From Octopus sinensis (taxonomy: Eukaryota), in NCBI RefSeq assembly GCF_006345805.1, contig NC_043009.1:52328001-52392000 (forward strand): DNA of 64,000 bases. The letters run 5' to 3'. Below the pieces are notes generated by a model. It had not been told where the DNA came from. It did not search any database and saw nothing but the letters and a program-made list of their open reading frames with translations. Both the position numbers and the translations under genes were made by a program. This document shows, in pieces, positions 15,778 through 36,260 of this stretch (positions are counted from its first letter, which is position 1; every line of letters starts with the position of its first letter).

Positions 15778-16191
15778 GATGAAAAGCAAACTCGACCTCG
15801 GAGGAATTTGAGCTCAGAACGTAAAAGACAGACGAAATACCTATTTCTTTACTACCCACAAGGAGCTACACACAGAGGGGACAAACAAGGACAGACAATC
15901 GGATTATATCGACCCCAGTGCGTAACTGGTACTTATTTAATCGACCCCGAAAGGATGAAAGGCAAAGTCGACCTCAACGGAATTTGAGCTCAGAATGTAA
16001 AGACAGACGAAATACCTATGTCTTTACTACCCACAAGGGGCTACACACAGAGGGGACAAACGAGGACAGACAAACGGATTATATCGACCCCAGTGCGTAA
16101 CTGGTACTTACTTAATCGAACCCGAAAGGATGAAAGGTAAAGTCGACCTAGGCGGAACTTGAACTCAGAACGTAACGGCAGACGAAATACG
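15778..16191 (-). mobile_element. Head-to-tail array of headless SINE family A units, period 175 bp
   Basis: gacgaaatac recurs at 15831, 16006 and 16181; each unit is body plus tail of the 14192-14423 SINE. Confidence 0.9.
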
Positions 16192-16439
16192 AATTTCTTT
16201 ATTGCCCACCGGGGGCCAAACATAGATATGGACAGTACAACTGATGGGATCAGTGAATCGATATGATTTTACATAAATGTGACATCAAAAATAAAATACA
16301 ATACATAAACATCGAATGGAATACACAGTACAAAAACAATACAAATGAAGCGATGATCAAGTTACGCTCCGATCCCACAAGCCCCGATCTACCGCTGATA
16401 CCTTTTTATTTTTCCTTTTTTTTTTTTTTCCTCGTCTAT

Positions 16440-19400
16440 TCACACGGTTCCTTGCACGCACAACACTTGTGCAACATACTTCCATCTCTTTTGGAACGTA
16501 CACTCTGACAGACACTCTTCTCCAGCCACAGTTTCCTTTTCAAATGAAAAGGAAAAAAAGGATCGTAAATTGTCACCAGAGATAAAGTTGCCTGTCTTAA
16601 TTCCTTTTATCCTAGTATTCCATACAGCCTCTTTTGCTATTGCTACAACCGTGAGAAAACAATTCTTACCTCGTTCGTTAGAACTCCCGGTGGGTCAATT
16701 TTTATAATTGACTCAGTCGACAGCCGTACTCTTCTTCGCCGGACAACAGATGTTCAGCATAAGCCCACATTTCAGTTATCTCCGGACACTGAACAATAGC
16801 GTGAGGGACGGTTTCCCTGTCCCCACGCTCTTGGACAGGTCGGCGACTGACGTTTACCATGTCTTGCGAGCTTATCCCAAACGGGCAAGGCACCTCTGTA
16901 GCATTGCCAGGTTAAGGACTTTTGGAAGTTGTCCAACGTTCTCAACCCGAATGTACGATGAAACAAGCTGTCCAGTTGAATAAATCCGAGACCTAGAGTC
17001 GACCCCAGGCCATCGTCGCATTCAGACTCTACCAACCCACTATATAAAATCCGTGTGGAACCCCAACCGCTGGCGTTGCCCGAGCGCCGGAACAGCAAGA
17101 GGGCCTTACGGCACTCTTTATGCCACTCACTCAACCTCGGTCTACGAGAACACCAGGCTTCCTGTTCGCAAAAACTCTTGAACTCAGGGAACATTTGTCT
17201 GGCCAGCGGAGACCACACCCGTTCACTATCCAGGAGAATCCAGAGGTGCCTCAACCTCAACGCATGTCTGCGCATCATTAACCAAGGCATCCCTAAACCT
17301 CCATTTAAAGGCTTTTGACAGCAGACAGAGCGTTTCACAAGTGGCGACCTGCCCTTCCACAAAAAGCGAAAGAGCTGTCTCTCCAACCTGATCAACCACG
17401 AATCCGGACAGGGCACGACAGTCAGGCGGTAGGTAATGACCGATGCGATAAACACATTGGCCACTTCCGCCCTCCCTTTCAGGGATAGCCACCGCCAAGA
17501 CCAAGTCTTGACTACTGCAGCACCCTGCTCAATACCTCCGTCTAGTTCTTCTCTATCTGGAGGCTGGTCCAAACCAGACTCCCAGCAACTTAACCGGTCC
17601 CTCCGTCCAGCGCCTAACAACACTGTCTGAAGGCATCGACTTGCCAACCCAGGTGCCGAGCTGCAAGCCGACCGACTTTTCCGGGTTAATCTTTGCTCCT
17701 GCACTACCTCCTCGTAAGCCTCAATAGTCTTACCTACTTCACGTAGGCGTACCACTGTGGTTACACTGATAGTGATATCATCCGCGAAAGCCGTAACAAA
17801 CTCCTCTAGTCCTGGTTCTCTCGGGATGCCACTCAACCTTTGCAGTAATGGCTCGAGAGCCATCACATACAAAAGTGGTGAAAGCGGACATCCTTGACGA
17901 ACCGAGCGTCTGATGCAGAACGGCTTCGAAAGGAAACCGTTCACCCGAACTATCGAGTCAATGTTGTGGTACAAAGATAATAAACCACCTGAGGAAGCCA
18001 AGGCCCAGGCCAAACCGCGCAAGTACAGTCGCTAGGTATCGATGGTCAACCCTATCAAAAGCTTTAGACTGGTCCAAATGCACCAATGCCCCACCTTTGC
18101 CAGATTTATTACCAAACCTCTCTATGGTATATAGCGAATAAGATGGAGGGTATCCTGAATGGTTCTGCCTGGGATGGCACATGTCTGTGCCTCCCCGACT
18201 ATACCATTCGCGACACGCGCCAACCTTTTTGCTAGAACCTTGGCCAAAATCTTCACTTCTGCGTTTAACAGAGTGATGGGCCTGAAATTCTCTAGAACGT
18301 CCCCCTTGTCCGGGTCCTTTCTGACCAACGTCACTACTCCCCGGCGCACAGATCTGGGGATAAACCCATTCTGTTTCCAGTTCGCGTACACGTCAGTCAG
18401 TAGTTGCCCGAACAAGTCTGGCATACATTTATACAGCTCGTACGGAAGACCATCAAGTCCCGGTGACTTACCCGCTTTACAATCAGCCAAAGCCTCCATC
18501 ACCTCCTCAAGTGTGATTGGCCCTTCGCAAGACTCCGCATCCGACCCCGAGAGGCACGGCAGCCCGGTAAGAAAGTCCTCGAGGGCTCTCCCACCACCAG
18601 GACCGCCGTCACCCCCGAACAGCTGGGCGAAGTACTCCCGAAAGACCTCACACATTTTCTCGGGTTCGTTATCAAGACACCATTTTGATTCGTCAAAGAC
18701 CGAATAGAGGAACTATTTCCTTGCCGAGCTTCCACCACTCGGGCCCATCCAGCGGCTTTGATTCCTTCACTTCCCATTGCACGTAACTTAGCTCTGGTAA
18801 TACTTCCCATGTGGTGGGCTTCAAGATGCTGGTTTAACTCCAGTCTTTTCACCCTCGCTTGGTCTGTATTACCAGTCCTCCAGGCTTCTTCTAGTTCTTA
18901 ACTAGACCATCTCCTATTTTACGTCCCTTCTTAGCTAAACTTATGCTAAACCTAATAGACTCATATTTGATGGCTCTTTTAGGGCGTACCACCATTTGTT
19001 ATTAATGATGGTACCTGTTAATGCCCTCTGTATTAACATCTTGATCCGCTTTCTGTACTCCTCAATCGCCAAAAGGGACGTATTGAGTTTCCAGTAGCCA
19101 GATCCCTGTCTATGCAACTTATCTACCGTCAGTTTACAGGTAACCATCTTGTGGTCACTGTAGCTGACTAGAAAAAACTGTGGACACTCAACTATGGACT
19201 TATCTTTTTCTCTAATTAAAATCCTATCTAGATATGTTCTGGTAGACCCGTCACTATTTGACCACGTCCACTGTGGAGTGTTCGGGTGCTCCAACCTATA
19301 TGGATCTGCTAGCTGAAATTGACTTAGCAGATCCCGAAAGCCTGTGTTACATTTTCTGTTCATGTTCGAGTTTGAGCCAACATAATCTGTGTGTGCTGCA

Positions 19401-19835
19401 CATATGTATTAGAGTCTCCTAACACTACTAGTGAATGCGACGTGGCTAGGAACTTTCCTAGGCCACGAAAATATTCAGTTTGCGGGCCAATAATGTTTGT
19501 GCATAAATAGCGACCAGCCTGATTGTCTTGCCACAACTGAATGTCAAATCGAGAACGACCAGCCTGCCTTCTGGGTCAGAAAAAACCAACTTTTTCTCGG
19601 CTACCCGGTTTCTTTTTAGTAGGACCAACACCCCACCCCCACCTCCCGCCCGACTCGGAGAAACGTATTTCTCGTAGCCGTTCAGGAGGGGGAGCAGATC
19701 TCTTGGCCCCTTCACCCGGGTTTCCGTTGCAACAATTACATCCAAATTTCTCGACCTGATGTCATTCAGAAAGCGTCCTTGCTTCCAGCTTGACAACAGG
19801 CCATGAACATTTAAACAACCAATGTGAATAGCCAT
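16440..19835 (-). pseudogene. LINE ORF2: APE endonuclease, reverse transcriptase and C-terminal Cys/His domain (frameshifted in this sequence)
   Basis: IGCLNVHGL, VIVATET, LVAIYA, TYLDRIL, SDHKMV, GYWKLN (endonuclease). KSPGLDGLPYELY, FRPITLLNAEVKILAK, LDQSKAFDRVDH, VRQGCPLSPLLY, AFADD (RT). CPR...ETVPHAIVQC (C-terminal). Split over several frames. Confidence 0.92.
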
Positions 19836-19849
19836 CACTTACCTGTTTA

Positions 19850-21364
19850 ATTAGGATTGTCCGGTGGAGGGGGACCCTCCACCTTTTTTTTATCCAGGGT
19901 CGGAGGTGGACGGTCTTGGGAAATAGATTTGTCAAAATCCCGTCTCACCACCGACACAGAATTATCAGGTGGAGGGGGAATCTCCACCTTTTCCTTTTCT
20001 CGCGGGATCGGAGCTGGTAATCCATGAAATATCGACTTGTTAAAATCTAATCTCAATGAAGATACAGTCTTTCTGTACTTATTTTGTAGAATTCTATAAG
20101 TATTTGAGACTTCATATATGTCGTAATTGATAAATTCCTCTGAAAGGTATCAATTTTTTTACAGTCTTTATGAGTGAATGTCTCTCATGAGCTCAGTATC
20201 TTTAGTGTATACGGCTATTATGCCTTTTTCTTCTTTTTCTCTCTGGCAGTCTTTTTTGGTCGTTGTTCTGTAGTAGTCGCCGCTCTCGGCTGGTTGCTGG
20301 TTGTATTTTTCTTTTGTTTGTTGTTTTTCTCATCTGTTTCTTCTTTATCTTCTTCCTCTTTGTCTTTTTCTCCTCTTACTCCTCTTCTTCATTTTCCTTG
20401 CAGTTCCTTCGAATGTGGCCTAATTGACCACATAAAAAACATCGAGGTTTTCGGCCCTCAACAAATACCACGAGGTTCTCCTCCCCTACCTCAATTGTCT
20501 CAGGAATTGTTTGAATTATTTTAGGGTCCGCTTGAATGAGAAGATTAATTGTTTTACCATCCCAGCGTGGGTTTTCCGTAGCGGTATCCTGGAGGAGAGT
20601 AATTTTTTCTACCTCTTTGATTAGGACTGCCGCCAACAACCACATAGGTTCGACCTCTGGCGGGACCCTTGTAATTTTTATTCGCGACGTCCTCATCCCC
20701 ATATAATAGGGTATTAACTCCACGTCGTTCGTTTTCAACGTTTCCACTGAGTTCTTGTGTGTCTATTTTTTATTGGTGAACCTTACTTCCACCGTTCCGA
20801 ATTTTTTCCTCTTCTCAGAAATACTACGTCACCCAATATTGGCTTCAAGCACTTTTCTATTTTCTCTTCTGACATTCTTTCAATTTTTCTTTTTGTAGAC
20901 AATATGTTTTGAAATTATTGTTTTTTGCTTTTCTTCCTGTAATAACTTTTGCGGAGGTTCAATTTTCACACTGTTGTCATTTATTTCCATCATTTTGCTG
21001 TATTTCATAATTTCGCTTTTATTCGTCGACAGTATCTGGGGTCCACCCCCAGCAGCCAACGCAAAACTTTTTTTTTTCCATTTTTTGGTTCTATCTGGAT
21101 GCTAGGCACATCAATTATTCTCTTCGACACAATGCCTTTGTTCTCTGGCAAAGTCGGAAACTCTTCTGGTGAAAGCTCTGACGAGCTCTCAGACACCATC
21201 TCCAAAAATATCAAATATATTATCCTCTCTGCTATTCCTTCTTGTAGCGGGGGAAACCCTATTTCCTTGTCTGTAGTTGGCTCCTCGCCGGACATGTATT
21301 TCCTCCTCTCAACAGGAGAAACAAGTATTTCTGCTCCAACGGTAGGCTCCATGCTAGACGACAT
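19850..21364 (-). pseudogene. LINE ORF1, gag-like protein with CCHC zinc knuckle (frameshifted)
   Basis: ATG at 21364; VFVEGRKPRCFLCGQLGHIRRNC (CX2CX4HX4C), typical of Tx1-type ORF1; charged then Pro-rich C-terminal region. End point uncertain. Confidence 0.8.
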
Positions 21365-21533
21365 TCTTCCCCCCAAAGGGGGAATGAACAACGCGTGCTA
21401 CCACAAGCACTAAGTGTTTTCAATTGAAAACTCCAACAGTTAAGTTATTCAACAGTTTAACAAGAAACAACAGTTGTTAACAATATTAACACCACGAAAC
21501 AGCAATTCTTACTTCACGAACACATGTGCGGCT

Positions 21534-21591
21534 GACGAAATACGGCTACGCATTTCGCCCGGCGTGCTAACGTTTCTGCCAGCTCGCCGCC
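21534..21591 (-). mobile_element. 5' head (A-box part) of the SINE interrupted by the Tx1 element
   Basis: Reverse complement ggcggcgagctggcagaaacgttagcacgccgggcgaaatgcgtagccgtatttcgtc matches 14192-14249. Confidence 0.9.
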
Positions 21592-36048: not shown

Positions 36049-36260
36049 TCTTTTCTACTGGAAGCACAAGGCCTCAAATTTGGAGGAATCGATTAAGTCG
36101 ATTACATCGACCCCAGTGTGTAACAGGTACTAATTTCATCGAACCCGAAATGATGAAAGGCAAAGTCAACCTCAGCGGAATTTGAACTCAGAACGTAACG
36201 CAGACGAAATACCGCTAAGTATTTTGCCCCGCGTACTAACGATTCTGCCAGCTCACCGCC
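36049..36260 (-). mobile_element. SINE family A, full length, alternative tail, in TAA-repeat context
   Basis: Head and body match 14192-14360; tail (plus strand tcttttctactggaagcacaaggcctcaaatttgg) is unrelated to the Tx1-like tail; target motif unoccupied at 36203-36212. Confidence 0.85.

What the first reader, a model, noticed from the sequence alone, without database searches (positions are those of the whole stretch)
16192..16235. LINE and its target SINE share a 3' tail with a conserved mini-hairpin
Seen: the LINE 3' end (minus) gtccatatctatgtttgGCCCccggtGGGCaataaagaaat aligns with the SINE tail gtcccctctgtggttaGCCCcttgtGGGTagtaaagaaat (14382-14421). The GCCC-N5-GGGY hairpin is kept via a G-U pair, and neither has poly(A). 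Established: stringent LINE/SINE pairs share a 3' stem-loop recognised by the RT, well known for CR1/L2/RTE partners and less so for the L1/Tx1 group. Inference: the SINE is both target and passenger of this LINE family, so it spreads new target sites.
Basis: partly seen in the sequence, partly recalled or inferred. Interest (0 to 1): 0.8.

Follow-up and report, generated by a model that had tools for sequence, protein, structure and literature searches.

The report
Self-targeting SINE and its LINE
A jumping gene (LINE) lands at one exact spot inside a very common short repeat (SINE), the two end in a similar tail that likely folds into a hairpin, and the SINE is found at that same spot inside copies of itself, so it likely borrows the LINE's enzyme while also supplying the LINE's landing sites.

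Summary
The LINE (21528-16192, minus) and the SINE share 36 of 48 tail columns; 0 of 5000 shuffles match that. This L1/Tx1-group lineage is strictly SINE-targeting: 30 of 30 young and 42 of 42 older copies sit at SINE position 50, with a 16-bp duplication. The tail is common to a whole group of sibling LINE families. Across them the 4-bp stem shows compensatory changes while the loop varies, although folding energy alone is unremarkable for the window pair. The SINE uses the same site: 23,375 exact tail-to-position-50 junctions, full-length nested copies with the LINE's junctions, and upstream array units younger than downstream ones. Dispersed copies prefer the same GGTA start. One correction: the window's family (139 exact tails, about 99% identical) is too young and never the best tail match. 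Older subfamilies of its lineage fit by age, tail and junction base, and a non-targeting sibling family matches the tail equally well. About two thirds of SINE ends are dispersed. Mobilisation and hairpin function are inferred, not tested. Verdict: new variant of a known kind (Tx1-type targeting plus a stringent tail, closed into a loop).

The parts
16192..21528 (-). Full-length L1/Tx1-group LINE; reading frames broken in this copy; no poly(A)
   Evidence: Ends defined by 30 + 30 junctions; RT fragments in window frames 16772-18031 and 18122-18712; a natural open-frame copy, L198, has APE endonuclease, RT, zf-RVT and an ORF1 CCHC knuckle
16192..16239 (-). Shared 3' tail of the LINE
   Evidence: 36 of 48 columns identical to the SINE tail; the last 52 nt identical in 30 of 30 young copies
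16204..16216 (-). Top hairpin, 4 bp with 5-nt loop, within a predicted interrupted stem-loop 16196-16226
   Evidence: Covariation across families; predicted fold
16176..16191 (-). 3' copy of the 16-bp target-site duplication (SINE positions 50-65)
   Evidence: One mismatch to the 5' copy
21529..21544 (-). 5' copy of the target-site duplication
21529..21591 (-). Head (positions 3-65) of the SINE copy that the LINE split
16016..16191 (-). SINE unit, positions 50-234, directly after the LINE
15841..16015 (-). Second, headless SINE unit (positions 51-234) of the array
   Evidence: the same tail-to-position-50 junction has 23,375 exact matches in the genome
15778..15840 (-). Third, partial SINE unit (positions 51-112)
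14192..14423 (+). Dispersed full SINE copy used as coordinate reference (position 1 = 14190); A-box-like and B-box-like motifs flank the target site; tail hairpin 14398-14410
   Evidence: box motifs judged from recalled Pol III consensus; no tRNA or Rfam match

Best explanation
An L1/Tx1-group LINE lineage inserts at one site of this SINE, and the SINE lies at that same site inside copies of itself, likely because the LINE protein recognises the shared 3' stem-loop and carries the SINE by target-primed reverse transcription. Shown: the LINE site (SINE position 50, 16-bp duplication), the shared tail, stem covariation across sibling families, nested SINEs with the same junctions, and the age order within arrays. 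Inferred: ORF2p binds the stem-loop, as shown for zebrafish L2 elements; the endonuclease nicks at the GGTA-type site. Most SINE amplification was driven by older subfamilies of the lineage, not by the young family of the window. A SINE cDNA entering a SINE usually joins the identical upstream head, which leaves head + body + old remainder and so headless tandem units. Relaxed use of GGTA/TATA-like sites seeds dispersed copies, and these are new targets.
For: Target: 30 of 30 3' and 30 of 30 5' junctions of the best-matching copies; 27 of 30 position-ordered copies by a strict rule; 42 of 42 older copies. SINE at the same site: 23,375 exact junctions; 19 of 64 tailed units in a random 1 Mb; 14 of 23 loci with a full SINE head right behind position 65 continue after the tail with position 51. 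Order: first unit 3.2% against last unit 7.2% from column majority, last older in 43, younger in 3 of 48 arrays; 15 of 55 arrays end in a SINE family with a different tail; tail type T in 25 of 26 first units but 14 of 26 last units. Neighbouring units of short arrays are 91.0% identical against 89.5% between loci, so most are not local duplicates. Dispersed T-type copies: duplication starts GGTA in 15 of 33 (background 0.27%), median length 15. Older subfamilies match the SINE in age (88.9% against 89.7% pairwise), tail (37.9 of 48 matches) and junction base (never C: 0 of 42 LINE and 0 of 55 SINE junctions, against 35 of 56 in the young family). Stem: 94.4% of cells paired against 85.0% in shuffles.
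Against: No assay. A sibling family that was never found at the site matches SINE tails as well (best for 34 of 65; 0 of 25 sibling copies at the site), so the tail does not name the partner. The LINE is almost strictly site-specific while 44 of 64 SINE ends are dispersed; the model needs a relaxed specificity in trans that is not shown. The hairpin is weak in the SINE (pair probability above 0.5 in 23 of 56 tails; z 0.23). The age gap shrinks when only same-tail arrays are used (3.3% against 4.5%, 17 against 6 of 26) and reverses in columns 166-200. That array heads are older than first bodies is only suggestive (p 0.075). 43 of the 55 arrays came from loci chosen by an exact junction; the 12 from the random sample give 9 against 2. 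Two arrays of 9-10 units are more homogeneous (94.2%), which suggests local expansion there.
Confidence: 0.68

Rival explanations
1. The SINE is moved mainly by sibling, non-targeting families of the same group. It reaches position 50 because read-through SINE RNA carries the target sequence behind its tail and pairs with nicked DNA there. The window's lineage is then a parasite of the SINE that merely inherited the group's tail.
For: Sibling family F3 is the best match for 34 of 65 tails. 50 of 65 tailed units lack a run of four T, so read-through is plausible. The base after the SINE tail is G or A even where the array head has C at position 50, which fits an RNA-templated base. Tail type C goes with other start motifs and a second hot spot at position 17.
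Against: Full-length nested SINEs end their 5' junction at position 65 exactly like the LINE in the commonest form, and RNA pairing at the 3' end does not set that second cut. Sibling families were at the site in 0 of 25 copies. The older targeting subfamilies match age and junction base.
Confidence: 0.22
2. Headless arrays arose without new target-primed insertions, by unequal crossing-over or by copying a few dimeric master genes as blocks; the match to the LINE site is inherited from rare founding events.
For: Full-length nested insertions are rare (56 exact matches) beside 23,375 headless junctions. Four blocks of extra head(s) plus a SINE carry one duplication around the whole block (L093, L099, L104, L114), so composites can move or duplicate as units. 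Long arrays are more homogeneous.
Against: First units are younger than last units, last units belong to several tail types and to other SINE families, and neighbours are hardly more alike than random copies. The tail end and position 49 share no homology for a crossover.
Confidence: 0.07
3. The tail likeness is real ancestry or gene conversion between neighbours, but the hairpin has no function.
For: Folding energy equals shuffles for both window sequences. Single tail swaps exist in both directions (L352, L418).
Against: Family-wide compensatory changes at two stem pairs while the loop takes at least nine forms; the three common SINE tail variants fall at an unpaired position or keep pairing in the predicted fold.
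Confidence: 0.03

Closest known systems
SINEU with Tx1-Mar in crocodilians (Kojima 2015, PMC4494074; passages and sections 15 and 16 read)
   Same: A Tx1-type LINE and a SINE share a target in another repeat; partnership is inferred from shared site and age; tandem SINE insertions around a duplication.
   Different: There the target is a third element (Mariner-N4_AMi), SINEU ends in poly(A), and no LINE resembles the SINEU-1 3' half. Here the target is the SINE itself, the tail is shared and there is no poly(A).
Tx1 of Xenopus in Tx1D; Keno, Kibi, Koshi (as summarised in PMC4494074)
   Same: APE-type LINEs with a fixed target in a multicopy sequence.
   Different: The targets listed in the passages read are DNA transposons, LTR elements, RNA genes, satellites and microsatellites; none is the LINE's own passenger.
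Stringent L1-clade pairs: maize and sorghum SINEs with a monocot L1 lineage, Chlamydomonas SINEX-3 with L1-1 (Ohshima 2012, PMC3472496; 2013, PMC3747384; passages read)
   Same: A conserved 3' end of about 45 nt with a hairpin and compensatory changes shared by L1-clade LINEs and a SINE. Only three of 58 tail-sharing SINEs had L1 tails in that survey.
   Different: Plants and algae; the algal pair ends in poly(A); no targeting of the SINE is described in the passages read.
Zebrafish ZfL2-1 and ZfL2-2 stem-loop recognition (PMC4176376; passages read)
   Same: Model for how ORF2p would read the tail: general stem, specific loop.
   Different: L2 clade, shown by experiment; nothing tested here.
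SINE tandem arrays in squamates and bivalves (PMC10702118, abstract and discussion read; PMC11481361, passages read)
   Same: Arrays of partial SINE units with a longer terminal unit.
   Different: Explained there by unequal recombination or satellite growth; here the unit border is the insertion site of a LINE.

Membership tests
L1/Tx1-group non-LTR retrotransposon | ORF2 with APE endonuclease, RT and C-terminal zinc region; separate ORF1; target-site duplication | tested here: met
   Pfam on natural copy L198; best solved relative human L1 ORF2p, E 1.8e-64, against R2 1.6e-20; 16-bp duplication in 10 of 10 copies with both ends, one with a 1-nt deletion
Tx1 clade proper | RT phylogeny groups it with Tx1, Keno, Kibi and Koshi rather than with L1 | tested here: inconclusive
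   No named reference set was available for a tree. The only hit with a family name is a coral protein labelled Transposon TX1 (322 bits), against 221 bits for human L1; a label is not a phylogeny
Tx1 clade proper | Target-sequence preference | tested here: met
Stringent LINE/SINE pair | Shared 3' tail | tested here: met
Stringent LINE/SINE pair | 3' stem-loop with compensatory changes | tested here: met
   C-G to U-A in 4 of 4 copies of one family, C-G to A-U in 7 of 7 copies of two families. Only two or three independent events
Stringent LINE/SINE pair | Concurrent activity | tested here: met
   For the older subfamilies; not for the window family
Stringent LINE/SINE pair | Tail required for retrotransposition and bound by ORF2p | not testable with these tools
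   needs an assay
tRNA-derived SINE (SINE2) | tRNA-like head with A and B boxes | tested here: inconclusive
   Box-like motifs seen by eye (consensus recalled); ARAGORN and Rfam found nothing
Named octopus SINE families (OK, OR1, OR2) | Sequence identity to the published families | not testable with these tools
   No Repbase, Dfam or SINEBase access; the octopus assignment is recalled from the look of the SINE and comes from no call

The most novel reading that the evidence does not exclude
A closed LINE-SINE loop: the SINE carries the recognition stem-loop of a Tx1-type LINE at its 3' end and that LINE's target site in its head, so each retrotransposed SINE is a new landing pad for both, and self-insertion with homologous joining of the head built tens of thousands of tandem SINE arrays that can themselves serve as source genes.
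Probability: 0.55. Interest if true: 0.78.

Novelty: new variant of a known kind. Interest (0 to 1): 0.62.

Why it matters
Target-specific LINEs are usually limited by a fixed supply of targets. Here the target would be manufactured by the LINE's own enzyme, which turns the usual parasite relation into mutual dependence. It offers a concrete retrotransposition route to tandem SINE arrays, which the papers read ascribe to recombination. It adds an animal L1/Tx1-group case of a structured, poly(A)-less tail, which bears on whether stringent recognition is ancestral in that group. Sibling families with one stem, different loops and different targets, and natural copies with long open frames, make both tail recognition and target choice directly testable.

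Tried and rejected
Expression: no RNA holder listed; four runs laid were contigs of guessed type and show nothing about transcription or RNA ends. Folding energy as proof of the hairpin: not better than shuffles for the window pair. A LINE family dedicated to SINE position 17: one pattern hit only, from a family with varied flanks; not established. Old-family against young-family diagnostic bases in array heads: 6 cases, mixed result. Head age test: p 0.075. Linkage of head type to downstream bases could not locate the joining point. Naming relatives for a Tx1 tree: 7 of 8 clusters carry no name. tRNA and Rfam scans of the SINE: blank. Local duplication as the general origin of arrays: rejected for short arrays. 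One of the three two-sided changes (U-G) comes from a family with a shorter loop that the alignment shifts, and I do not count it. Earlier notes of this scan on this genome or sequence: none.

Full report
Observation. The window holds a 5.3-kb LINE on the minus strand (21528-16192) inside a copy of a 232-bp SINE; a free copy of the SINE lies at 14192-14423 and gives the position numbers used here (position 1 = 14190). The two 3' ends align at 36 of 48 columns, 0 of 5000 shuffles reach that score, and no other part of the LINE comes near (best 22 against 41). The window is part of a 2.72-Gb animal assembly. That it is an octopus is my recollection from the look of the SINE and comes from no call.

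The LINE. A natural copy (L198) has a 520-codon first frame with a CCHC knuckle and a 1134-codon second frame with APE endonuclease, RT and zf-RVT. Human L1 ORF2p is the closest solved relative. The only homologue with a family name is labelled Transposon TX1. It belongs to the L1/Tx1 group; Tx1 proper is likely but was not placed on a tree. The window family has 139 exact tails and is about 99% identical among its best copies.

Target. All 30 best-matching 3' ends (of 40 listed, 376 candidates) abut SINE position 50, and all 30 5' ends abut position 65. The queries held no SINE sequence. Of the first 30 of 139 exact tails by position, 27 pass a strict rule; one has 7 extra bases before the site, one has a diverged target, and one is a SINE with a LINE-type hairpin. 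In 10 copies with both ends the duplication is 16 bp and its first base follows the resident SINE in 10 of 10. Older subfamilies, 86-88% identical to the window copy, sit at the same site in 42 of 42 cases (37 of these were fetched from the 40 places). The site lies between the A-box-like and B-box-like motifs (consensus recalled).

The tail belongs to a group. A LINE about 77% identical to the window copy led to 30 loci of sibling families, which form a sister branch to the targeting lineage in a tree of 29 ORF2 ends (5 of 34 rows were left out as too short or unmatched). All share the last 45 or so bases in altered form. On an unfitted alignment of 18 tails the four stem pairs are kept in 94.4% of cells against 85.0% in shuffles, and slid registers give 24-49%. 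By family, the inner C-G becomes U-A in 4 of 4 copies of one family, the second C-G becomes A-U in 7 of 7 copies of two families, and the outer pair switches between G-C and G-U, while the loop takes at least nine forms of 4-6 nt. These are two or three independent events, and related sequences can beat such shuffles, so this is good but not overwhelming support. Predicted folds extend the stem downwards to about 31 nt. Energy is unremarkable for the window LINE and SINE (z 0.18, 0.23) and better for three relatives (z -1.7 to -2.8).

Which family is the partner. Scored against 65 SINE tails from a random 1 Mb, the mean matches of 48 are 37.9 for the oldest targeting subfamily, 37.5 for sibling F3, 36.4 for the middle subfamily and 35.7 for the window family. 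Best match per tail: F3 34, oldest subfamily 28, others 3, window family 0. Pairwise identity is 88.9% among the older LINE ends (two subfamilies pooled) and 89.7% among SINE bodies. The base at the 3' junction is never C for older LINEs (0 of 42) or SINE arrays (0 of 55) but is C in 35 of 56 young-family copies. Sibling families were at the site in 0 of 25 copies. So the older targeting subfamilies are the best candidates, and the tail alone does not exclude the siblings.

The SINE uses the same site. A 24-base tail pattern has 91,341 exact matches and a 32-base tail-to-position-50 pattern 23,375. In 100 evenly placed 10-kb stretches, 19 of 64 tailed units abut position 50, 1 abuts position 17 and 44 are dispersed. 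A full SINE head right behind position 65 has 56 exact matches; the 30 examined are 23 loci, and in 14 the inserted SINE is followed by position 51 (counted by hand). In 55 arrays the first body is 3.2% and the last 7.2% from column majority (43 against 3 of 48), and 15 arrays end in a SINE family with another tail. Restricted to same-tail arrays over columns 66-200 the gap is 3.3% against 4.5% (17 against 6 of 26), with a reversal in columns 166-200; the 12 arrays of the random sample give 9 against 2. First units have tail type T in 25 of 26, last units in 14 of 26 (p 0.0008). Neighbouring units of short arrays are 91.0% identical (46 pairs) against 89.5% between loci; two long arrays reach 94.2%. 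Duplications were found for 43 of 110 dispersed blocks, median 15 bp; for type T they start with GGTA in 15 of 33 and have TA at positions 3-4 in 29 of 33.

Mechanism. Shown: site, duplication, shared tail, covariation, nested SINEs, age order. Inferred from established TPRT biology and the ZfL2 experiments (PMC4176376, passages): ORF2p binds the stem-loop, nicks at the site and primes from there. Inferred from anatomy: when a SINE enters a SINE, its cDNA meets an identical head upstream and joins it, so full-length nests are rare and headless units common; the test for older heads was only suggestive. Four blocks of extra head(s) plus a SINE carry one duplication around the block, which suggests that nested loci are transcribed and copied again, although local head duplication would look the same. 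Unexplained: why the LINE is nearly strict while two thirds of SINE ends are dispersed.

What is known. Kojima 2015 (PMC4494074; passages and sections 15, 16) describes SINEU and Tx1-Mar sharing a Mariner target, without a shared tail for SINEU-1 and with poly(A). Ohshima 2012 and 2013 (PMC3472496, PMC3747384; passages) found three SINEs with L1 tails among 58 pairs, in plants and an alga. A 2026 annotation of Octopus vulgaris lists 13 recently active L1-Tx1 families and has no occurrence of 'target' or 'nested' (PMC13282606; first third read plus term search). SINE arrays in squamates and bivalves are put down to recombination (PMC10702118, abstract and discussion; PMC11481361, passages). Passages of PMC4758252, PMC5786205 and PMC8967140 add nothing on this pair. 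Ten full-text searches found no LINE whose target is its own tail-sharing SINE. The library lacks most subscription papers, Repbase and Dfam, and I read no supplements, so a prior note there is possible. Unchecked notes of this scan report Tx1-like LINEs in SINEs of other genomes, so SINE targeting alone may not be rare.

Verdict. Observation confirmed; interpretation right for the lineage, too narrow for the family. New variant of a known kind, interest 0.62.

Noticed in passing
L431 (G000:C4:74137100-74142700), L207, L211, L223, L228, L232: Sibling LINE families lie head to tail at about 5.4-6.4 kb spacing, and several copies of a family share the same sequence behind the tail; they may target the 5' ends of each other.
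   Followed up: partly
L082, L102, L007, L024, L036, L062, L112, L293: A second hot spot at SINE position 17, with arrays of units 17-234 and one sibling LINE copy there; often after C-type tails.
   Followed up: partly
window 36087-36260 (minus); many loci: Older SINE families share positions 3-168 but end in unrelated tails with ATT-like repeats; they are also hit at position 50 and close 15 of 55 arrays.
   Followed up: partly
L352 and L418: One SINE ends in the LINE's hairpin (34 nt identical) and one older LINE copy ends in the SINE's T-type tail, which suggests occasional tail exchange.
   Followed up: no
L091-L097, L119-L120; G000:C3430:1378-2210: Tandem repeats of the SINE head alone, period 65-67 bp, breaking at position 65.
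   Followed up: partly
window 14031-14190: An inverted repeat of about 30 bp around a TA-rich spacer lies directly before the free SINE copy; possibly a small foldback element.
   Followed up: no
window 55000-61500: Long low-complexity tract with GC skew near -1 (almost no G on the plus strand) that produces many spurious open frames.
   Followed up: no
L194 (G000:C3:151139400 onward): An internally deleted copy of the LINE (about 1.2 kb of 5' end joined to the last 0.4 kb) at the normal site with an intact duplication.
   Followed up: no
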